DNA from: Candidatus Poriferisodalaceae bacterium
GTDB lineage: Bacteria > Actinomycetota > Acidimicrobiia > Acidimicrobiales > Poriferisodalaceae
NCBI GenBank assembly: GCA_047618365.1
Contig: JBLHLM010000001.1
Location: forward strand, 9,254-73,253
DNA length: 64,000 nucleotides
Reading direction: 5' to 3'
In this document: positions 19,351-27,518 of the stretch, one piece after another
Layout of the letters: every line of letters begins with the position of its first letter
Position numbering within the stretch: position 1 is the first letter of the stretch
Notes under the pieces: generated by a model
The model's database searches: none
Seen by the model: the letters and a program-made list of their open reading frames with translations, nothing else
What the model was told of the DNA's origin: nothing
Translations under genes and position numbers: made by a program

Positions 19351-20317
19351 TCAGACCATCTTGGTCTGGCGCCCTGCGGACGGCTCGTTTCGGGTGACCC
19401 AGTAGAACAAGATCGCCGAACCGGCGACCAGAAGCGCCGCCGCCCGAAAGGCGGTGGCGTTGCTGCTGTTGTCAGCAAGCCATCCGAGGAGTGGCGGTCC
19501 GAGGATGAAGCCGACGTCGCCGGCGGATCGATAGGCAGCGACGCATTTGCCTCTGACATGTGGTGGAGCGATATCGGCGACGAACGCTGCCGGTGCGGGC
19601 CCGGCTGTTCCAGTCCCAATTGTCATCACGAGGTTGCCGGCGATGAACAAGGCGCTGCCCGTGCTCTGGGCGATCAGCAGGGTGCCGATTCCAGCGGTGA
19701 CTCCCGAGAACACGATCACGGCCCTGCGCCCGAGCCGGTCCGACCCACGCGCTGCTGGCATCAGGGTGAAGAGGGTAAGGACGCCAGTCAGCGTGAAAAG
19801 GCTGCCGAGCGTCGCTTCACCCCAGTTCAGTCGCGGACCTGCGGAGTACAGAGAAACGAGTGTTCCTCGGGTGCCCGCTCTGGTCATGAAGATGGTTGCC
19901 GTCACTAGGGCTAGCGCTCCGAATCGTTTGGAGAGGATGAAACCTCGGAGGGCGCCTGCGGCCGGAATTCCGTTCGCTTCCGTCTGGGCGGGCGATGTCG
20001 ATGAGGTAGATCAGGGCCCCACTCATGTAGAGCGCTGAGTCAGCGCCCGCGACGAAACGCCACAGCAGCAGGGTCCAGATGTTGGCTGCGAAGCCTGAAC
20101 CGATCATCCCGGCCGGAAAGTTCAGCATCAGGCGAGCGAGAGCGAACACCGACAGCATGAAGCCGGCCGCCGCAGCACCGACTCCGAACTCGGCTGCGTA
20201 GCGAGGAATCAGCGGGCAGACGACGCCCTGGCCGGCCATGACCAGCAACGTTGCTCCGCACAACACGAGCAGGTGTTCAGGTTCGCCTAGGCGAGTCATC
20301 CAGTCAGGTCGTTGCAC
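19351..20317 (-). pseudogene. MFS transporter split into two overlapping frames (frameshift near 19986..19993), also shorter than a normal 12-TM MFS
   Basis: ORFs 19817..20317 (LIPRYAAEFGVGAAAAGFMLSVFAL...YLIDIA) and 19351..19905 (GSDRLGRRAVIV..., FVADIAPPHVRGK...GFILGPPLLGWL) are both MFS-like but lie in different frames. After DIA the first frame becomes RPDGSERNSGRRRPPRF. The other frame is open from 20010 downstream. Confidence 0.6.
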
Positions 20318-20426: not shown

Positions 20427-21575
20427 ATGGAAGTTGACCATCCGATCATCTCGGCCGATTCGCACATTGCCGAAGCGCCGAACACTTACACGGACTACAT
20501 CGACCCGAAGTGGCGCCACATTGCGCCACACGTCGTCGAGACTGAAGACAAGGGCGATATTTACGTCATCGACGGCATGAAGCGCACCATCAACATGGGC
20601 CTCATCGCAGCCGCCGGGCAGCAGGCGCACGAACTGAACCCAAAGGCCAAGTGGGCCGACATCCCGCGTAGCGGCTGGGACTCCGATTACCGCCTCGCTG
20701 ACCAGGACAAGGACGGCGTGTCGGCCGAGGTGATCTATCCCTCCGTTGGCATGGTGCTCTGCAACCATCCCGACGCCGACTACAAGAAGGCGACGATGGA
20801 CGCCTACAACCGTTGGATCAGCGACTACTGCTCGGTCGACACCGATCGGTTGCTCGCCATTGGACAGACTCCACTCCGTTCAGTCCAAGAAGGCATCAAC
20901 GACATCACCGCGATGAAAGAAGCTGGCCTACGCGGGGTCATGATGCCCGGCGATCCCGCCACCGACTTCGACTATGACGATCCACAGTGGGATCCGTTCT
21001 GGCAGACCGCAATCGATCTCGACTTCCCCTTGTCATGGCACATCCTCACCACACGCGATTCCGGCCGCCCACGCGGCCCCAAGGCCAACGCGTTCATGAC
21101 CATCATCCGGGCCAATCAAGACATCATGGGCACCCTGGTATTCGGTGGCGTGTTCGAGCGTCACCCGGAGCTGCGTGTCGTGTGTGTCGAGGCCGACGCT
21201 GGCTGGGTTCCTCACTTCATGTACCGCATGGATCACGCCTACAACCGACACCGTTACTGGCTCCCACCAGGCCAGGAGCTGTCGAAGCTGCCGAGTGAGT
21301 ACTTCAGCGAGAACATCTACACAACGTTCCAAGACGACTGGGTCGCGTTTAAGATGGTCAACGACATGAACCACAAGCGGTTGCTGTGGGCTAACGACTT
21401 CCCTCACAGCGACAGCACGTGGCCCTGGAGCCAGGAACTGCTCGACGAGCACGCTGCGAACCTAACGCCCGAGCAGAGCCTCGACATCCTCTGCAACAAC
21501 GTCGCTGATCTTTACAAGATTGATCTCAGCAAGATTCCGGTCGGCGGGGACCTTCTAGCGGCTGGCGCAGTCTGA
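20427..21575 (+). CDS. amidohydrolase-2 family metal-dependent hydrolase (ACMSD-like)
   Basis: IISADSHIAEAP, GVSAEVIYPS and LWANDFPHSDSTWP. Confidence 0.8.
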   Translation: MEVDHPIISADSHIAEAPNTYTDYIDPKWRHIAPHVVETEDKGDIYVIDGMKRTINMGLIAAAGQQAHELNPKAKWADIPRSGWDSDYRLADQDKDGVSAEVIYPSVGMVLCNHPDADYKKATMDAYNRWISDYCSVDTDRLLAIGQTPLRSVQEGINDITAMKEAGLRGVMMPGDPATDFDYDDPQWDPFWQTAIDLDFPLSWHILTTRDSGRPRGPKANAFMTIIRANQDIMGTLVFGGVFERHPELRVVCVEADAGWVPHFMYRMDHAYNRHRYWLPPGQELSKLPSEYFSENIYTTFQDDWVAFKMVNDMNHKRLLWANDFPHSDSTWPWSQELLDEHAANLTPEQSLDILCNNVADLYKIDLSKIPVGGDLLAAGAV

Positions 21576-21578
21576 ACC

Positions 21579-22373
21579 ATGCCCGCATAACAAAGCCACG
21601 AAGTCGACTACGAGGTCTTCGGCGACGATCTGCAATACGTCGAGATCGAACTCGACACGGGTGAGACAGTCATCGGCGAGGGCGGAACAATGATGTTCCT
21701 CGAAGATGGCATCACCTTCGAAACCAAGATGGGCGACGGTTCACAACCCGACTACGGCATCTGGGGCAAGCTCAAATCGGCTGGCAAGCGGGCCATCACT
21801 GGTGAGTCGATTTTCCTGACCCACTTCACGAACTCCGAAAACCCGGGCAAGGTTCGGGCCGGATTCGCGGCCTACTATCCCGGCAAGATTATCCCGATCG
21901 ACCTCGATGAGATCGGTGGCGAAATCATCGTGTAGAGCGATGGGTTCCTCTGTGCAGCCATGGGAATCAAGCTCGACATTGCGTTCCAACGCAAGATCGG
22001 AGCTGGCTTCTTCGGCGGTGAGGGCTTCATTGTTCAGCGCATCACGGGTGTCGGCAAGGTCTTCCTGCACACTGGCGGCTCGATCAAGGCCATGTACCTC
22101 AACAACGAGAAGGTCAGGGTCGATACTGGCTGCCTCGTCGCTCTGCAGCCTTAGCTGCAGTGCGACATCGAGCGAGCCGGCAACTTGAAGTCGATGGTCT
22201 TCGGTGGCGAAAGTTTGTTCCTTGAGACGATCCGGGGCACCGGTTGGGTCTGGTTGCAGTTCCTGCCGTTCTCGCGGGTGGTGGATCGGGTCATGTCGAG
22301 CGGATCGTTCGGCAAGACCGACGGCGAAAGCTCGGTACTTGGCGGCGTTGCCAACCTCTTCGAACGCAGCTGA
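21579..22373 (+). pseudogene. AIM24/TIGR00266 (DUF124) family gene interrupted by three in-frame stop codons
   Basis: One frame reads [51 protein letters not shown]...[16 protein letters not shown]...[121 protein letters not shown]... The stops are TAA 21588-21590, TAG 21933-21935 and TAG 22152-22154. Track ORFs 21690, 21960 and 22185 share this frame. Confidence 0.8.
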
Positions 22374-22428: not shown

Positions 22429-23460
22429 TCAACCGGCGGTGGGGTCGACCAGGATCTTTACTGCCGTTGAGCGTTTGTTGGCGAGGTCGTCGACGGCGCC
22501 GGCGAGCCCATCGAGGGTGACGGTTCCTTGGTGTAGCGGTGCCACTTGGAGACGGCCGTCGTAGACCATGTCGGCGACGATCTTCATCTCGTCGAGCGAG
22601 AACACGATCGATGTGTCGACCGAGATCTCCTTCGTCATCCATTTCATCGGGGAGATGCTGGCGTCACCACCAGTGACCCCGACGATGCACACCGAGCCTC
22701 CGTAGCGAACCATGTCAGCAGCCTGCTGGATCGTCTGGGGAATGCCCGCACAGTCGAACGCGATGTCGGCCCGAAGGTCGCCCGCAGTTGACCGGATGGC
22801 TTCCTGGGCTGGTGGTCCAGGCTCGACGGCGACATCGGCTCCAAGCGAAACGGCCAGTGCTCGTCGAGCCTCGTCGGGCTCGACCACGATGACGTGACCA
22901 GCCCCCGCGATCCGGGCGCATTGGGCGGTGAAGAGCCCGATTGGACCTGCGCCGAGAACGACAACTACGTCACCCACCCGGAGCTTGCTGCGCCTCACCG
23001 CGTGCATCGCCACGCTGGCGGGTTCGATCAGCGCGGCGTCATCGAAGGGCATGTCGGATTGGATCGAGATGCAGCGCTCGCCGCGCAGCTTCATCATCGG
23101 AGCAAAGCCGCCCCACTTCGGGGTGAGGTCACCCCAGTAGTGGCGTTTTGCTGTTCGGCAGTAGGTCGGGAGATCCGCCCGGCACTCGGGGCAGGCACCG
23201 CATCCCGGAGCGAGCCCGCCGGTGACGAGGTCGCCCTCGCTCACGTTGGTCACGTCCTTACCGGCCATCGCGACGTGCCCGACCCATTCGTGTCCGCAGA
23301 CCCCTGACGCGTATGCCCACCCTTCGACGTAGGCATGAACGTCGCTGCCGCAGATTCCACAACGCTGCACTTCGACCACCACCTCATCATCGTCGGGAGT
23401 CGGGTCGTCGAACTCCTTGAGTTCGAGCGTTCCCTTGCCGGTGATAAGTCCTGCGCGCAT
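22429..23460 (-). CDS. zinc-dependent alcohol/threonine-dehydrogenase-like MDR oxidoreductase
   Basis: Trimmed to MRAGLITGKG. RCGICGSDVH, CGHEWVG, CGACPECRADLPTYC and VLGAGPIGL. Confidence 0.85.
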   Translation of the reverse strand: MRAGLITGKGTLELKEFDDPTPDDDEVVVEVQRCGICGSDVHAYVEGWAYASGVCGHEWVGHVAMAGKDVTNVSEGDLVTGGLAPGCGACPECRADLPTYCRTAKRHYWGDLTPKWGGFAPMMKLRGERCISIQSDMPFDDAALIEPASVAMHAVRRSKLRVGDVVVVLGAGPIGLFTAQCARIAGAGHVIVVEPDEARRALAVSLGADVAVEPGPPAQEAIRSTAGDLRADIAFDCAGIPQTIQQAADMVRYGGSVCIVGVTGGDASISPMKWMTKEISVDTSIVFSLDEMKIVADMVYDGRLQVAPLHQGTVTLDGLAGAVDDLANKRSTAVKILVDPTAG

Positions 23461-23537
23461 GTGTCCCCCTGGCGACCCGCTGTCTGAGCTGGGCTGGCGA
23501 TAAGTAGGCACTCAGCATGGACTAGAACCGGAGGTTG

Positions 23538-23858
23538 ATGCTGCGTCGATTCTCACCAGACCTTCCCGAAGTGACCTTGCTTCCGGAACAAGCGCTTCCG
23601 GAACAAGCGCTTCCGGAACAAGCCGACCTGCCGTCCGCGCTTCCGGAGACGGAGCGCCGTCGGTGGCGACGGCGAATCTTTGCGACTGCGGTAGTTGTGA
23701 TCCTTGGTGCCTCGCTCACGAGCGCCCTCCTTGTCGACCGTACGAGCGATCTGTCGCACCGCCAGACTGGGCTCGAGACCGACCCGACACCGGCGTTGAC
23801 GCCTGCTGGTGTTCCCGAAGGAGTTGTCGGTTCGTTCACGGGGAGAAACGGCGGCTGA
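23538..23858 (+). CDS. small bitopic membrane protein with LPEQA x3 N-terminal repeat, hypothetical
   Basis: MLRRFSPDLPEVTLLPEQALPEQALPEQADLPSALPETERRRWRRR, then TM IFATAVVVILGASLTSALLV, then a Pro/Thr-rich tail. GGAGG at 23530-23534. First gene of the + strand operon ending at 25484. Confidence 0.5.
   Translation: MLRRFSPDLPEVTLLPEQALPEQALPEQADLPSALPETERRRWRRRIFATAVVVILGASLTSALLVDRTSDLSHRQTGLETDPTPALTPAGVPEGVVGSFTGRNGG
23579..23623 (+). repeat. three perfect in-frame 15-bp tandem repeats gcttccggaacaagc (encode LPEQA)
   Basis: Read directly. A degenerate partial copy (gcttccgga) follows at 23639. Confidence 0.9.
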
Positions 23859-23885
23859 GATCGTCGGCAGTAGAGTCAGAGTTCG

Positions 23886-24935
23886 ATGAGCCTTCGGTCT
23901 TCCCGCCTCAACGCTGACAGTTTTGCCGAGCTCCAGGAGCTCTATCACTCGCGTGGATGGACCGACGGCTTGCCGATCGTGCCGCCGACCCCGGATGCGG
24001 TGCAGGGCTGTCTCGACTGGGCGATGCTGCCTGCCGATCATCTCGTCGGGATCGAGCCAGTCCGGGCCAGGGCGATCACCGCCGAGAAGCTTGCGATCAA
24101 CGCTGTCATGGCTGGCTGTCTGCCGATGCACTTCCCGGTAGTGGTCACCGCGATGACGGCGATGCTTCAGGAAGAGTTCTTGCTTCATGGCGCGACCGCG
24201 TCCACCGGCGGTTGCGCGGTGCTGTTGATCGTCAACGGACCGGTCCGTCGCGAACTTGGGATGACCACTGACTTCAATGTGCTCGGCAACTCCGACCGGG
24301 CATCGGCTGCCATTGGCCGAGCGATCCGCCTGGCGCTGATCAACGTGCTCGATGTTCGGCCAGGCGAGATCGATCGCTCGACCCTCGGTCATCCTGGGAA
24401 GTTCAGTTACTGCGTGGCCGAGGACGAAGAAGGATCGCCGTGGGAATCTCTCGCGACCGAACGCCTCGGTGACCCCTATGTATCGGCGGTGACCGCCATT
24501 GCGTCCATGGCACCCCGCCAGATCATGAACGAGTGGACGACCGATCCGCGAGAGATCTGCGAAACCGTCGCTGCGGAGATGCGAGCGAACCAGCTCAACT
24601 ACTCGATCTGGGCCGGCAACTACACGGTGATCCTGCCGCCCCAGCTGAGAGCATCGTTCATCACTGCAGGGTGGTCGAAGGCCGACATCCAAGAATGTGT
24701 GTTCGAGCGGGCTCGCGTCAAGCGAGGTCAGTGGGCCGAAGTCGGCAAGGGTTCTGTAGTGAAAGACCGAGCGGAGCGGGAGTACGCAGCGCTGGGTTCG
24801 CCCGATGATCTGATGATCGTCGCCGCAGGGGGACCGGCTGGCGGATTCGCCTCGGTGATCCCGCCATGGTTGGGAACGAAGAGTCGAGCCTCGACGGTTG
24901 CAGTCGGGGCCTGTGTCGATTGCGAGGTGTCATAG
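23886..24935 (+). CDS. conserved-looking protein of unknown function with C-terminal CxxC, directly abutting the selenoprotein gene
   Basis: 349 aa with globular composition and high GC3, e.g. GWTDGLPIVPPT and HGATASTGGCAVLLIVNGP. It ends GACVDCEVS. Stop TAG 24933-24935 is immediately followed by ATG 24936. Confidence 0.7.
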   Translation: MSLRSSRLNADSFAELQELYHSRGWTDGLPIVPPTPDAVQGCLDWAMLPADHLVGIEPVRARAITAEKLAINAVMAGCLPMHFPVVVTAMTAMLQEEFLLHGATASTGGCAVLLIVNGPVRRELGMTTDFNVLGNSDRASAAIGRAIRLALINVLDVRPGEIDRSTLGHPGKFSYCVAEDEEGSPWESLATERLGDPYVSAVTAIASMAPRQIMNEWTTDPREICETVAAEMRANQLNYSIWAGNYTVILPPQLRASFITAGWSKADIQECVFERARVKRGQWAEVGKGSVVKDRAEREYAALGSPDDLMIVAAGGPAGGFASVIPPWLGTKSRASTVAVGACVDCEVS

Positions 24936-25484
24936 ATGTCTAGGCAGGCAATGTCTGAGTCCGGTTGGGTCGTGCTTGACCCGAGTCATGAGGATCGCAA
25001 GGTTGGTAGCGAGCCAGCCCCCAGGCTGGCGACGCTCGCTGGCACGACTGTTGGGGTGATTTCGAACGGCAAGGAGAACACCCGCCCGTTCTACGACCAC
25101 GTCGAGCGCATCTTGCGTGAGCAGCACCAGGTCGCCGAAGTGGTCCGACGCATCAAAGGCAACTACAGCGCGCCTGCTGAGGACGAGCTGATGGCCGAGG
25201 CCATGGGGTGGGATGCAGTGCTCAGCGGGGTAGGTGATTGAGGCAGTTGCTCGTCGTGCAGTTTGCACGACGCTGTGATTGCGGACCGCCAAGGTGTGCC
25301 CGCTGTGTCGGTCATGACGACCGCCTTTGTTGATGCTGCCGAGGCGATGGCGCGGGTTCAGGGTGTGCCCGATCACCCCTTCGCCATCATTGAACATCCG
25401 ATCTCGAGCGCCGACGAGGAAGGGCTGATTGCCCGTGCGCAGGCTGCCGTGGACCGGATTGTTGAGGTTCTCGTTCTCGCATAA
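24936..25484 (+). CDS. UGSC-motif selenoprotein (in-frame TGA 25239..25241 read as selenocysteine), function unknown
   Basis: Track ORFs 24936..25241 and 25263..25484 are in the same frame, with no stop other than the TGA. Read-through gives ...WDAVLSGVGD-U-GSCSSCSLHDAVIADRQGVPAVSVMTTAFVDAAEAMARVQGVPDHPFAIIEHPISSADEEGL..., 182 codons. A SECIS-like hairpin follows the TGA. Confidence 0.75.
25252..25272 (+). promoter_or_regulatory. SECIS-like stem-loop (8-bp perfect stem, AGUUU loop) 10 nt downstream of the in-frame UGA
   Basis: CGTCGTGC-agttt-GCACGACG read directly. The loop starts 19 nt after the UGA, which is within the spacing I recall for bacterial SECIS elements. Confidence 0.6.
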
Positions 25485-25485
25485 A

Positions 25486-25547
25486 CCAGAACTGCTCCGG
25501 CTACCCAGGCGAGAAGCCAGAACTGCTCCGGCTACCCAGGCGAGAAG
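25486..25547. repeat. perfect 31-bp tandem duplication ccagaactgctccggctacccaggcgagaag x2 covering the lrp 3' end and stop
   Basis: Read directly. Copy 2 (25517..25547) contains the last codons and the TAG (25532-25534) of the Lrp gene. Copy 1 fills the gap to the selenoprotein stop (25482-25484). Confidence 0.9.
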
Positions 25548-26065
25548 ATGGTGTAGTCGAGCGGAAGTGCTGTGGTTCGTTTCAGTTCTTCCATGACGAA
25601 CACCGAACGCACGTCGTATAGATCCACCCGATCGATGAGGCGTTTGTAGAAGTTGTCGTAGGCCGAGATGTCCGGCACGACGACCCGCAACATGTAGTCG
25701 GTCTCGCCGCTGGTGCGGGTTGCTTCAACAATCTCCGGAAAGTCGGAGATGGCGGCCTGGAACCCGGCGAGCCACCGAGCCGAGTGGTCGTTAGTGCGGA
25801 TCTGGACCAGCGCCGTCACATCGAGGTTCAGTGCGCTGGGCTCCAGAAGAGCAACCCTGCGGCTAATGATTCCGGTCTTCTCAAGGTTCTGCACTCGGCG
25901 CCAGCACGGCGTGGCGGTCAATCCGACGCGCTCGCCGAGCTCGCGCGCGGACATCGAGGCGTCCTCTTGGAGCAATTGCAGAATTTCCCGATCAACTAAG
26001 TCCACATTGGAATAATATGGCAAGGCTGGGTCGAAAGTCGAGATGATTTTCGCCGAACCGAACAA
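25532..26065 (-). CDS. Lrp/AsnC-family transcriptional regulator
   Basis: DREILQLLQEDASMSARELGERVGLTATPCWRRVQNLEKTGII (HTH) plus an AsnC-type ligand domain. The start is uncertain (TTG 26065 or an internal GTG). Confidence 0.85.
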   Translation of the reverse strand: MFGSAKIISTFDPALPYYSNVDLVDREILQLLQEDASMSARELGERVGLTATPCWRRVQNLEKTGIISRRVALLEPSALNLDVTALVQIRTNDHSARWLAGFQAAISDFPEIVEATRTSGETDYMLRVVVPDISAYDNFYKRLIDRVDLYDVRSVFVMEELKRTTALPLDYTIFSPG

Positions 26066-26914: not shown

Positions 26915-27469
26915 TTGTCTACCCAGCCGCTCCAAATGGCCTGCGCCGCCACCCGCGAAACCCTCACCAACATCAAGGCCGATCAGATGAGCGCCGCGAC
27001 ACCTTGTGCATCTTGGGACGTTGCTGGTTTGGTCAACCACATCGTTGGCGCCCAGAACTTCTTCCTGGCAGGTCTGACCGGCATGCCTCCGGGCGAAGAG
27101 GTCGACTATGCCGCTGGCGACTATGTCGCAGAGTTCGATGCCGCCAGCGCCAAGCTGCTCGAAGCCTTCGGTGCCGAAGGTGCCCTTGAGAAGACGTACA
27201 CTCTTCCGTTCGGCGAAATGCCCGGAGCGGCATTTATGGGCCTCGCCGCCACCGATACCTTCCAGCACGGCTGGGACGTTGCCAAGGCCACCGGCCAGAG
27301 CACCGACCTCAACCCCGAGCTTGCCGCCGGCATCCTCGCCCAGTCCCGCGCCGCGATTCAGGACTCTTTCCGCGGTCCTGAAGGCGCTCCGTTCGGTTCC
27401 GAACAGCAGGCTCCAGAAGGCGCCACCAACGCTGATCAGCTCGCCGCCTTCCTCGGTCGCACTGTCTGA
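26915..27469 (+). CDS. DinB/mycothiol-maleylpyruvate-isomerase-N-terminal-like (TIGR03086-type) metal-binding protein
   Basis: AATPCASWDVAGLVNHIVGAQNFF and DTFQHGWDVAKATGQ. Trimmed to the TTG at 26915, which lies 7 nt after AGGAG. The upstream part of the track ORF is antisense to 26366..26839. Confidence 0.8.
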   Translation: MSTQPLQMACAATRETLTNIKADQMSAATPCASWDVAGLVNHIVGAQNFFLAGLTGMPPGEEVDYAAGDYVAEFDAASAKLLEAFGAEGALEKTYTLPFGEMPGAAFMGLAATDTFQHGWDVAKATGQSTDLNPELAAGILAQSRAAIQDSFRGPEGAPFGSEQQAPEGATNADQLAAFLGRTV

Positions 27470-27518
27470 GGAGGCACTGTCTGAGGAGGCACTGTCTAAG
27501 TAGGCACTGTTTGAGCTC
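27459..27518 (+). repeat. 15-bp tandem repeat x4 (2 perfect, 2 degenerate), each copy carrying a stop codon in the frame of 26915..27469
   Basis: gcactgtctgaggag / gcactgtctgaggag / gcactgtctaagtag / gcactgtttgagctc. The stops are at 27467, 27482, 27497 and 27512. Confidence 0.9.

What the first reader, a model, noticed from the sequence alone, without database searches (positions are those of the whole stretch)
23538..25484. Compact three-gene operon around the selenoprotein: candidate uncharacterised thiol/selenol redox module
Three + strand genes are packed together.
- The first is a small bitopic membrane protein with an acidic LPEQA x3 N-terminus, RRRWRRR and one TM.
- The second is a 349-aa protein I cannot assign to any family. 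It ends in GACVDCEVS (a C-terminal CxxC).
- The third is the U-G-S-C-S-S-C selenoprotein.

The stop of gene 2 (TAG 24933-24935) directly abuts the ATG of the selenoprotein, which implies coupled translation and probably a complex. A CxxC tail next to a UxxC centre suggests an electron or thiol relay. Weak recollection only: the segment after U (E/D..G[IV]P.V......HP[IL]) resembles the Sec region of GrdB/PrdB-type reductase subunits. An Lrp-family regulator lies convergently just downstream.
Basis: inference. Interest (0 to 1): 0.7.

Follow-up and report, generated by a model that had tools for sequence, protein, structure and literature searches.

The report
UGSC selenoprotein with its obligate partner
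A known but function-less selenoprotein (UGSC family) sits next to a 349-residue protein of an uncatalogued family that accompanies it, or is fused to it, across bacteria and archaea, so the two most likely form one thiol/selenol-dependent reductase whose substrate is still unknown.

Summary
Gene 3 (24936-25484, TGA at 25239) belongs to the known UGSC (seleno)protein family, whose function is unknown. A SECIS hairpin follows the TGA and keeps its pairing through compensatory changes in 72 sequences.

Gene 2 (23886-24935) has no Pfam, NCBIfam or PDB match, yet its family is large: 4581 clusters at 50% identity.

The pairing is strongly conserved.
- About 68 of 80 species-level loci carry UGSC next to a gene 2 relative on the same strand.
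- 6 of 6 loci found from the UGSC side carry a gene 2 relative immediately downstream.
- Fusions occur in both orders.

The only other domains fused to gene 2 relatives are thioredoxin-like (AhpC/TSA) and ferredoxin:thioredoxin-reductase domains. In the contigs I could read, those fusions still had UGSC adjacent.

The best reading is a two-protein Sec/Cys reductase that is regenerated by a thioredoxin-type donor.

- Gene 1 occurs only in this organism and is not part of the module.
- The C-terminal CxxC tail is clade-specific (6 of 119 representatives).
- UGSC is predicted to be flavodoxin-like, not thioredoxin-fold.

The resemblance to PrdB is real but weak (E about 1e-3, Sec aligned on Sec). 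A UGSC fusion to an unnamed domain was reported in 2008. Interest is moderate to high.

The parts
23886..24935 (+). Partner gene (349 aa) of an uncatalogued family. Conserved motifs are WTDGLPxxPPT, NAVMAG-C78, NGP, GRAxR145 and (Y/F)xx-C176-xAE179xE. The flexible C-terminal GACVDCEVS tail is specific to one clade.
   Evidence: 4581 clusters at 50% identity; C78 in 137 of 141, C176 in 133 of 147, R145 in 150 of 150. No Pfam, NCBIfam or PDB match. AF2 model has pLDDT 82 and pTM 0.83; the 160-171 loop and the 342-349 tail are below pLDDT 50.
24936..25484 (+). UGSC-family selenoprotein, 182 aa with Sec at residue 102. An alternative start is ATG 24951.
   Evidence: Pfam PF24696 scores 173 bits and NCBIfam NF041046 scores 128.5 bits against a cutoff of 125. 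The frame stays open through the TGA. Public gene calls split it into two ORFs at the TGA.
25239..25241 (+). In-frame TGA read as selenocysteine (U of D-U-G-S-C).
   Evidence: The same position is TGA in all but one of the roughly 68 adjacent UGSC genes from other species and Cys in Nakamurella. It is Cys in 120 full-length homologues.
25252..25272 (+). SECIS-type hairpin: CGUCGUGCA-GUU-UGCACGACG, starting 10 nt after the UGA. The conserved core is 25254-25260 pairing with 25264-25270, with a GUN loop.
   Evidence: MFE is -28.1 kcal/mol, z = -2.46. Across 72 sequences the seven upper pairs are paired in 63-72 of 72. Both-sided changes occur: CG to GC (5), UA to GU/AU (12), GC to AU (2). Sliding the partner columns drops pairing from 74% to 24-47%.
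24923..24928 (+). GAGGTG Shine-Dalgarno-like motif for the UGSC gene, lying inside the 3' end of the partner gene.
   Evidence: Read directly. It is 7 nt upstream of ATG 24936. This is inference only.
23535..23858 (+). Lineage-specific small ORF ('gene 1', 107 aa, one predicted TM). It is not part of the conserved module and its coding status is uncertain.
   Evidence: Homologues were found only in contigs of the same organism (L001-L004) and none beside gene 2 in the 80 other loci. The only family hit is CU044_5270 at E 0.009, far below its cutoff.
23579..23623 (+). Perfect 15-bp x3 tandem repeat, GCTTCCGGAACAAGC, containing the palindrome TTCCGGAA. It is the DNA basis of 'LPEQA x3'.
25532..26065 (-). 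Convergent Lrp/AsnC-family regulator. This is context only and is not conserved with the module beyond the closest relatives.
20427..21575 (+). Amidohydro_2 (PF04909) gene. In the closest other-species loci (L005, L006) its orthologue ends 12 nt before the partner gene. It is the most recurrent neighbour, though still a minority one.
22429..23511 (-). Divergent Zn-dependent alcohol dehydrogenase-family gene (context).
   Evidence: A Zn-ADH plus Amidohydro_2 pair also lies upstream of the module in Solwaraspora.

Best explanation
Genes 2 and 3 encode the two subunits of one thiol/selenol-dependent reductase.

- The 349-aa protein is the substrate-specific subunit. It carries two near-invariant cysteines: Cys78, placed just before a helix, and Cys176, followed by an acidic AExE motif.
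- The UGSC protein is a flavodoxin-like alpha/beta domain. It supplies a Sec-Gly-Ser-Cys centre at the N-terminus of its third helix.
- Each turnover leaves a selenenylsulfide or disulfide bond. A thioredoxin-type donor reduces it again.
- In the clade that includes this window, the disordered C-terminal CxDC tail of the partner may act as an extra swinging relay.
- The UGA is decoded as Sec through a SECIS hairpin that lies inside the codons for SCSSCSLHD.

Shown here: family membership of UGSC, Sec decoding signals, obligate pairing, fusions, and the fold class of UGSC.

Inferred: physical complex, direction of electron flow, and the roles of Cys78 and Cys176.

Unknown: the substrate. The variable catabolic neighbours (amidohydrolase_2, dehydrogenases, CoA-transferases, transporters) suggest a small organic molecule in aerobic heterotrophs.
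For: Pairing:
- In the 80 best species-level loci holding a gene 2 relative, about 68 have a UGSC ORF on the same strand. Most lie within -30 to +50 nt, and a few lie upstream or are fused. Only 4 loci with ample flanks lack one.
- In 6 of 6 loci reached from the UGSC side (Microbacterium, Thermocatellispora, Solwaraspora, two haloarchaea, one metagenome), a gene 2 homologue (E 4e-45 to 2e-65) starts within 14 nt or overlaps.
- No third gene is conserved; the commonest neighbour occurs in at most 8 of 80 loci.

Fusions:
- 23 of 51 long family members carry a UGSC domain, at either end. ORFs break exactly at the Sec codon.
- The only other fused domains are AhpC-TSA/Redoxin (6), Thioredoxin_8 (2) and FeThRed_B (2).
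- In all three fusions with readable context, a Sec-UGSC gene is still adjacent. These redox domains are therefore a third, regenerating component.
- A TrxR-Trx fusion gene lies divergently next to the pair in Microbacterium.

Conserved residues: C78 97%, C176 90%, D27, R145 and E179 at or above 98%.

UGSC model: pLDDT 93, five beta-alpha units, with Sec at the start of helix 3.

Sec decoding: conserved hairpin with compensatory changes.

Likeness to PrdB around Sec. In PrdAB a Sec subunit works with a substrate-binding subunit and is regenerated by an electron-transfer protein (PMC11229817).
Against: - There is no direct evidence of a complex or of any activity.
- The partner's fold has no convincing solved relative (best TM 0.29-0.34), so nothing is known about its chemistry.
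- Model coordinates could not be inspected, so it is unknown whether Cys78 and Cys176 lie close together or face UGSC.
- Four loci have a stand-alone gene 2 relative.
- One UGSC-fusion representative (P0195) has lost the Cys/Sec motif entirely. At least some members therefore cannot use this centre.
- Neighbourhoods are too variable to name a pathway.
Confidence: 0.6

Rival explanations
1. The pair is a true analogue of the Stickland selenoprotein-B reductases (PrdA/PrdB, GrdE/GrdB). The partner would carry an electrophilic cofactor, such as a pyruvoyl group formed by self-cleavage at a conserved Cys, that binds an amine substrate. The Sec of UGSC would attack the substrate carbon and cleave a C-N or C-X bond, and Cys105 would resolve the selenoether.
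For: - A PrdB sequence, validated at 424 bits on TIGR04483, hits the UGSC HMM at E 4.3e-4 over residues 137-176.
- hhalign of the UGSC profile against 60 real PrdB sequences gives E 6.6e-4. U-G-S-C aligns on U-G-T-C, and the E..G(V/I)P strand sits at the same offset.
- Both systems pair a small Sec subunit with a larger subunit and need an external reductant (PMC11229817).
- Near-invariant Cys residues exist in the partner.
Against: - hhalign probability is only 21-27%, and the confident stretch is about 50 residues.
- No UGSC member hits Pfam GRDB even at E up to 10.
- The partner shows no match to PrdA/GrdE-type models in Pfam or NCBIfam.
- No PrdH-like maturation gene is conserved next to the pair.
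- The hosts are mostly aerobic heterotrophs, not Stickland fermenters (organism names; inference).
Confidence: 0.15
2. The Cys/Sec-rich motifs (UGSCSSC plus the CxDC tail) bind or traffic a metal, a metalloid or selenium/sulfur, rather than catalysing reduction of an organic substrate.
For: - A UxxCxxC motif next to a CxxC tail resembles metal-binding sites.
- In all 27 loci where the tail and UGSC are both present, UGSC has the third Cys.
Against: - The tail is absent from about 95% of representative clusters.
- The third Cys is absent from most Cys-form homologues. Its codon is constrained by SECIS pairing.
- No metal-resistance or transport genes recur nearby.
- The fused domains are disulfide reductases, not metallochaperones.
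Confidence: 0.1
3. This is a three-gene operon in which the small membrane protein (gene 1) anchors the complex.
For: - The ORF is on the same strand, 27 nt upstream of gene 2, with a GGAGG motif before its start.
- Public pipelines called it as a gene.
Against: - It is absent from all 80 loci of other species.
- In the closest relatives an amidohydrolase gene ends 12 nt before gene 2.
- The acidic repeat is a perfect 15-bp x3 DNA duplication.
- Its codon-position GC pattern is atypical for this stretch.
Confidence: 0.05
4. The TGA is a genuine stop. Gene 3 is then either two small unrelated ORFs or a pseudogene, and its adjacency to gene 2 is incidental.
For: Public gene calls split it into ORFs of 96-101 aa and 62-69 aa. 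No tRNA-Sec or sel genes were seen in this 64-kb window.
Against: - The sequence stays in frame and is conserved on both sides of the TGA in about 67 species.
- Homologues have Cys at the same column.
- The hairpin shows compensatory changes.
- One Pfam model spans residues 13-180 across the TGA.
Confidence: 0.02

Closest known systems
UGSC family (seleno)protein (Pfam PF24696, NCBIfam NF041046; 'UGSC-containing protein' of Zhang & Gladyshev, PMC1976440 and PMC2398784)
   Same: Gene 3 is a full member. It scores above both curated cut-offs and has the D-U-G-S-C motif, a length of about 180 aa, and a TGA followed by a SECIS hairpin. The 2008 paper already noted a fusion of UGSC to an unnamed conserved domain, 'Unknown_1'.
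   Different: - The literature held here lists the family as of unknown function. It calls the family 'likely Trx-like fold', whereas the model built here is flavodoxin/Rossmann-like.
- I found no description of the near-obligate partner family, of its size, or of the three-component variants.
- I could not check whether 'Unknown_1' is the gene 2 family, because that figure is held only as an image.
Selenoprotein B of D-proline and glycine/sarcosine/betaine reductases (PrdB, GrdB/F/H; TIGR04483, TIGR01918, Pfam PF07355)
   Same: - Both have a U-G-(S/T)-C centre following a beta-strand at the start of a helix.
- An acidic residue and G-(V/I)-P sit at identical offsets.
- Both work (by inference for UGSC) with a larger partner subunit and an external reductant.
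- Weak profile similarity exists, with Sec aligned on Sec.
   Different: - No family-level HMM match in either direction reaches a curated threshold.
- The partner is unrelated in sequence to PrdA/GrdE.
- No pyruvoyl maturation factor is conserved nearby.
- Hosts and neighbours point to aerobic catabolism, not Stickland fermentation.
Thioredoxin-dependent reductases with fused or dedicated redox partners (for example Msr-Trx fusions, or the C-terminal Cys-pair tail of class Ia ribonucleotide reductase; this comparison rests on my own knowledge)
   Same: A catalytic domain with conserved Cys residues is accompanied by, or fused to, Trx-fold or FTR-type reductant domains. In this clade a disordered C-terminal Cys pair could shuttle electrons.
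   Different: The catalytic domain is of an unknown fold family. An additional, invariant Sec/Cys flavodoxin-like subunit stands between the reductant and the enzyme.
Class I (Fe-S) fumarate hydratase alpha subunit, and Toblerone-fold cyclic amide hydrolases
   Same: These are the best Foldseek hits of the gene 2 model (E 3e-4 to 1e-2).
   Different: TM-scores are only 0.21-0.34 with rmsd of 12-16 Å. There is no sequence similarity, no three-Cys cluster motif and no internal repeat. I do not treat these as a relationship.

Membership tests
UGSC family (seleno)protein (PF24696 / NF041046) | Score above the curated HMM cut-offs over the whole domain | tested here: met
   Pfam gives 173 bits (cutoff 25) over residues 13-180. 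NCBIfam gives 128.5 bits (cutoff 125).
UGSC family (seleno)protein (PF24696 / NF041046) | [U/C]-G-S-C motif at the conserved position | tested here: met
   The window has GVGD-U-GSC. D101, U/C102, G103, S104 and C105 are invariant in 72 sequences.
Bacterial selenoprotein gene (UGA plus SECIS) | Stem-loop shortly downstream of the UGA with G/U in the apical loop, conserved in orthologues | tested here: met
   The hairpin starts 10 nt after the UGA and has a GUN loop. Its seven upper pairs are kept in 63-72 of 72 sequences, with both-sided changes at three pairs. No Rfam model matched.
Bacterial selenoprotein gene (UGA plus SECIS) | Sec machinery (selA, selB, selD, tRNA-Sec) in the same genome | not testable with these tools
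   Only a 64-kb window is available. It holds no tRNA, and I did not search it for sel genes.
Selenoprotein B (PrdB/GrdB; TIGR01918, PF07355) | Family HMM match | tested here: not met
   None of 32 UGSC members hits PF07355 at E up to 10. No Grd/Prd model appears for gene 3 in NCBIfam.
Selenoprotein B (PrdB/GrdB; TIGR01918, PF07355) | UxxC centre in the same local structural context | tested here: inconclusive
   hhalign gives E 6.6e-4 and probability 27%, with Sec on Sec. The reverse HMM hit is E 4.3e-4. No solved PrdB/GrdB structure appeared among the fold matches.
Selenoprotein B (PrdB/GrdB; TIGR01918, PF07355) | Partner is a PrdA/GrdE-type pyruvoyl proprotein | tested here: not met
   Gene 2 and 55 relatives have no Pfam or NCBIfam hit of any kind. 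Self-cleavage itself is not testable here.
Thioredoxin-fold oxidoreductases | Trx fold (mixed sheet, beta-alpha-beta-alpha-beta-beta-alpha) with CxxC at a helix N-terminus | tested here: not met
   The model of a 56%-identical homologue has five consecutive beta-alpha units. Its best fold matches are flavodoxin/Rossmann-like, with TM up to 0.5. Only the 'redox motif at a helix N-terminus' feature is shared.
Class I fumarate hydratase / Toblerone-fold hydrolases (for gene 2) | Global fold match | tested here: not met
   Best TM is 0.29/0.34 with rmsd 15.8 Å. The profile finds nothing against PDB sequences.

The most novel reading that the evidence does not exclude
UGSC and its partner would be the two halves of a previously unrecognised, widespread class of Sec-dependent reductase. 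Hosts include marine, soil and haloarchaeal organisms and are mostly aerobic.

The selenoprotein would be a very distant offshoot of the Stickland selenoprotein-B lineage. The substrate-binding subunit would have a fold without a solved relative. Thioredoxin, a fused TlpA-like domain or a fused ferredoxin:thioredoxin-reductase domain would feed the enzyme.

This would give a function to one of the most abundant orphan selenoprotein families of ocean metagenomes.
Probability: 0.3. Interest if true: 0.8.

Novelty: new variant of a known kind. Interest (0 to 1): 0.6.

Why it matters
[quoted passage not shown] A 2026 review still lists them among selenoproteins whose functions are largely uncharacterised (PMC13188914).

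UGSC almost never travels without one particular 350-residue protein. Thioredoxin-type domains are also bolted onto that protein. An orphan selenoprotein therefore becomes a defined two-component (sometimes three-component) enzyme candidate with named residues to mutate.

Cys-form pairs occur in cultured Microbacterium, Agromyces, Solwaraspora and haloarchaea. Sec-form pairs occur in cultured Sheuella amnicola, and UGSC itself was reported in Hyphomonas neptunium. The question is therefore directly testable.

The SECIS analysis also carries a general caution. Residues just after Sec (U+6, U+8, U+9) co-vary because their codons pair in the RNA stem. A 'UxxCxxC' motif in Sec forms therefore need not be a protein-level requirement.

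Tried and rejected
- Pfam and NCBIfam scans of gene 2 and of 55 diverse relatives at relaxed E-values found nothing.
- A gene 2 profile against PDB sequences found nothing. Foldseek of the gene 2 model against PDB gave only TM 0.21-0.34 hits, which I rejected as a relationship.
- Self-comparison of the gene 2 profile found no internal repeat.
- The UGSC profile against PDB sequences, and against Pfam at E up to 10, gave no GRDB or Trx match. Foldseek of the UGSC model gave only generic Rossmann/flavodoxin-like matches.
I used a 56%-identical Cys-form homologue as proxy.
- A single-sequence search for UGSC homologues returned only 10 hits because Sec forms are truncated in databases. The profile search worked.
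- The lower SECIS stem predicted for the window alone is not conserved, with about 40-50% pairing.
- I looked for a conserved third gene or pathway around the module and found none above 8 of 80 loci. A list of immediate operon mates was too noisy to use.
- I could not check whether the 2008 'Unknown_1' domain equals gene 2, because the figure is held as an image.
- One AhpC/TSA-fusion contig was too short to show its neighbours.
- No Rfam family and no tRNA were found in the window. No sigma-70-like promoter or convincing terminator lies inside the unit.
Full report
**What is in the sequence**

The three + strand ORFs exist as described.
Its product has LPEQA x3, RRRWRRR and one hydrophobic segment.
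- Gene 2 runs from 23886 to 24935. It is 349 aa long and ends in GACVDCEVS.
- Gene 3 starts at ATG 24936, directly after the TAG of gene 2. It stays open to 25484 if TGA 25239-25241 is read through, giving GVGD-U-GSCSSCSLHD.
- A second in-frame ATG at 24951 is the start used by one public gene call. The gap between genes 2 and 3 is therefore 0 or 15 nt.
- A convergent Lrp/AsnC regulator (25532-26065) and a divergent Zn-ADH-family gene (22429-23511) flank the unit.
- An identical copy of gene 2 is annotated 'hypothetical protein' in a Candidatus Poriferisodalaceae (Acidimicrobiia) MAG.

**Gene 3 belongs to a known family**

It matches Pfam PF24696 (UGSC, 173 bits) and NCBIfam NF041046 (UGSC family (seleno)protein, 128.5 bits against a cutoff of 125). 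The family was named in 2007-2008 as a selenoprotein of unknown function. It was one of the most abundant in ocean metagenomes (PMC1976440, PMC2398784). A 2026 review still groups it with selenoproteins of largely uncharacterised function (PMC13188914).

**Sec decoding is well supported**

- The hairpin CGUCGUGCA-GUU-UGCACGACG begins 10 nt after the UGA. Its MFE is -28.1 kcal/mol and z is -2.46.
- I aligned 72 distinct UGA-downstream segments from other species. The seven upper pairs are formed in 63-72 of 72 sequences.
- Both-sided changes occur: CG to GC in 5 sequences, UA to GU/AU in 12, and GC to AU in 2.
- Sliding the partner columns by 1-3 positions drops pairing from 74% to 24-47%.
- The lower stem predicted for the window alone is not conserved.
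- The stem is made of the codons for residues U+4 to U+10. Cys to Gly at U+6 goes with His to Leu at U+9. Cys to Trp at U+6 goes with Leu to Ile at U+8.
- Cys-form homologues need no SECIS, and most lack the U+6 Cys. Their consensus is GDCGSCSAxxVxDG. The invariant protein motif is therefore D-[U/C]-G-S-C, not UGSCSSC.

**Gene 2 belongs to a large family without a curated model**

- It has more than 7700 hits in the word-indexed search, all unnamed or 'hypothetical'. An exhaustive HMMER scan finds 4581 clusters at 50% identity.
- Neither gene 2 nor 55 diverse relatives match any Pfam-A or NCBIfam model. A profile finds nothing among PDB sequences.
- The AlphaFold model is confident (pLDDT 82, pTM 0.83). 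Its low-confidence parts are the conserved 160-171 loop and the last eight residues, which form the CxDC tail.
- Foldseek against PDB gives only weak matches: class I fumarate hydratase alpha subunit (E 3e-4, TM 0.29/0.34) and Toblerone-fold hydrolases (TM about 0.22). I do not accept these as a fold assignment. No internal repeat is detectable.
- Among 150 representative clusters, the conservation is: D27 in 133/134, G77 in 141/141, C78 in 137/141, G118 in 148/148, R145 in 150/150, C176 in 133/147, E179 in 145/147 and W186 in 142/147.
- A C-terminal CxxC occurs in only 6 of 119 representatives.

**The pairing is the main result**

- A scan of one genome per species found at least 597 genomes encoding a relative. 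I examined the 80 best loci. They span Actinomycetota, Alpha-, Beta- and Gammaproteobacteria, Chloroflexota, Methylomirabilota, Acidobacteriota, Myxococcota and SAR324.
- About 68 of the 80 have a UGSC ORF on the same strand. Usually its projected start is -30 to +50 nt from the gene 2 stop. In a few loci it lies upstream or is fused in frame.
- All but one of these UGSC genes have TGA at the U position. Nakamurella has Cys.
- A UGSC HMM finds none in 10 loci. Six of those end too close to the gene. Four (L027, L029, L038, L082) have a truly stand-alone gene 2 relative.
- From the other side, six UGSC Cys-form genes were all followed by a gene 2 homologue, overlapping or within 14 nt (E 4e-45 to 2e-65). 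These came from Microbacterium, Thermocatellispora, Solwaraspora, Salinigranum, Natronorubrum and one metagenome.
- No third gene is conserved. The commonest neighbours (SDR, MFS, amidohydrolase_2, LysR, CoA-transferase III, HpcH aldolase, amidase) each occur in at most 8 of 80 loci.

**Fusions**

- Representatives of the gene 2 family include three kinds of UGSC fusion:
  - UGSC(Cys)-gene 2 fusions, such as P0266;
  - gene 2-UGSC fusions whose ORF ends exactly at the Sec position, such as P0161 and P0140;
  - ORFs that begin just after the Sec codon and run into the gene 2 domain, about ten cases.
- A Pfam scan of 51 long members found UGSC in 23, AhpC-TSA/Redoxin in 6, Thioredoxin_8 in 2 and FeThRed_B in 2, and nothing else.
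- The thioredoxin-like and FTR-type domains do not replace UGSC. In the three fusions whose context could be read, a Sec-UGSC gene is directly adjacent.
- In Microbacterium a TrxR-Trx fusion gene lies divergently next to the pair.
- The picture is a constant core (partner plus UGSC) with interchangeable disulfide-reducing feeders.

**UGSC fold and the PrdB lead**

- The tool would not accept the window's own protein with U written as C. I modelled a homologue that is 56% identical, P0270.
- The model has pLDDT 93.4 and five consecutive beta-alpha units. The Sec/Cys sits at the start of helix 3.
- Fold matches are generic flavodoxin/Rossmann-like domains, with TM up to 0.5. The earlier suggestion of a thioredoxin-like fold (PMC2398784) is not supported.
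It scores 424 bits on TIGR04483 (cutoff 300) and is 78-90% identical to 80 real PrdB loci.
- That PrdB sequence also hits the UGSC HMM at E 4.3e-4, over residues 137-176.
- hhalign of the UGSC profile against a profile of 60 real PrdB sequences gives E 6.6e-4 and probability 27%. U-G-S-C aligns on U-G-T-C, and E..G(V/I)P sits at the same offset.
- This is a real but weak local likeness. It falls short of family membership, because no UGSC member hits Pfam GRDB.

**Gene 1 and the tail**

- Gene 1 has homologues only in contigs of the same organism.
- In the nearest other species (L005, L006; 77% identity), an amidohydrolase_2 gene ends 12 nt before gene 2. That gene is orthologous to window 20427-21575.
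- In the window, about 2.3 kb separate the two. This stretch holds three AIM24 fragments, the Zn-ADH gene and gene 1.
- The LPEQA repeat is a perfect 15-bp x3 tandem repeat.
- I therefore treat gene 1 as lineage-specific and of doubtful coding status.
- The G(A/V)CxDC tail occurs in about 31 of the 80 closest loci. Wherever UGSC is also present (27 loci), UGSC has the U+6 Cys. Phylogeny and the SECIS constraint confound this correlation.

**Interpretation**

The most economical reading is a two-subunit reductase.
- The partner provides substrate binding and Cys78/Cys176.
- UGSC provides the U-x-x-C centre.
- A thioredoxin-type donor (free, fused TlpA-like, or fused FTR-like) re-reduces the oxidised enzyme.

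I cannot decide whether Sec acts on the substrate, as in PrdB (PMC11229817), or on a partner disulfide. I could not read model coordinates or run a complex prediction. The substrate is unknown.

It needs correcting on the number of genes, on the generality of the CxxC tail and on the fold.

**Novelty**

- The selenoprotein family is known.
- A fusion to an unnamed domain was noted in 2008.
- The held literature does not describe the partner family, its near-obligate linkage across two domains of life, the three-component variants, or the coupling between SECIS pairing and residues after Sec.

Noticed in passing
window 23579-23623, 25486-25547, 27459-27515: The only three tandem repeats found in the whole 64-kb window all lie within 4 kb of each other, around the module. 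They are 15 bp x3 (perfect), 31 bp x2 (perfect) and 15 bp x3.8 (90% matches). The first contains the palindrome TTCCGGAA and sits in the divergent region between the Zn-ADH gene and gene 2, so it might be an operator array rather than coding sequence.
   Followed up: partly
window 25486-25547: The perfect 31-bp duplication begins 2 nt after the UGSC stop. Its second copy covers the last codons and the stop codon of the convergent lrp gene, so it duplicates the 3' end of lrp.
   Followed up: no
window 21690-22373 (+) and about 19351-20299 (-): An AIM24-family gene is broken into three consecutive ORFs (81, 64 and 59-62 aa). An MFS transporter gene is split into two ORFs (136 and 160 aa) in the public gene calls of the identical contig. 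These are probably pseudogenes, which suggests local gene decay or rearrangement between the amidohydrolase gene and the module.
   Followed up: no
A6 alignment (UGA-downstream segments of L005-L084); window 25252-25272: Amino acids at U+6, U+8 and U+9 of UGSC proteins co-vary because their codons base-pair in the SECIS stem. The observed combinations are Cys/Leu/His, Gly/Val/Leu and Trp/Ile/His. This is a clear case of an RNA structure shaping a protein motif.
   Followed up: yes
L042, L055, L067, L069, L070, L074, L075, L081; proteins P0125, P0132, P0155, P0156, P0184, P0189: Several genomes carry two or three copies of the gene 2/UGSC pair within a few kb. About 710-aa proteins consisting of two tandem gene 2 domains also exist. 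The family therefore expands by paralogy, as substrate-specific enzyme families do.
   Followed up: no
L086 6694-7536 and L168 5700-6539 (haloarchaea): In both haloarchaeal loci the pair is followed by a DUF6282 gene. It is surrounded by organic-acid catabolism genes (PrpD/MmgE, aconitase-like, CoA-transferase III, acyl-CoA dehydrogenase, TctABC transporter). This is a possible lead to the substrate class.
   Followed up: no
L085 6658-6921 (Microbacterium sediminicola): A small 87-aa ORF overlaps the end of the gene 2 homologue. Its size is similar to PrdH, the 92-residue factor needed for PrdA maturation (PMC11229817). No similarity was tested, and no such ORF follows the pair in the window.
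   Followed up: no
L009-L028 versus the window: Gene 2 proteins of Alpha- and Gammaproteobacteria, Myxococcota and SAR116 are 63-71% identical to this Acidimicrobiia protein. That is closer than some other Acidimicrobiia copies (about 40%), which suggests horizontal transfer of the cassette among marine bacteria.
   Followed up: no
protein P0195: One UGSC-gene 2 fusion has lost the redox motif altogether (AADIGAAMSW instead of GDCGSC) while keeping the rest of the UGSC domain. The UGSC domain may therefore also have a structural role.
   Followed up: no
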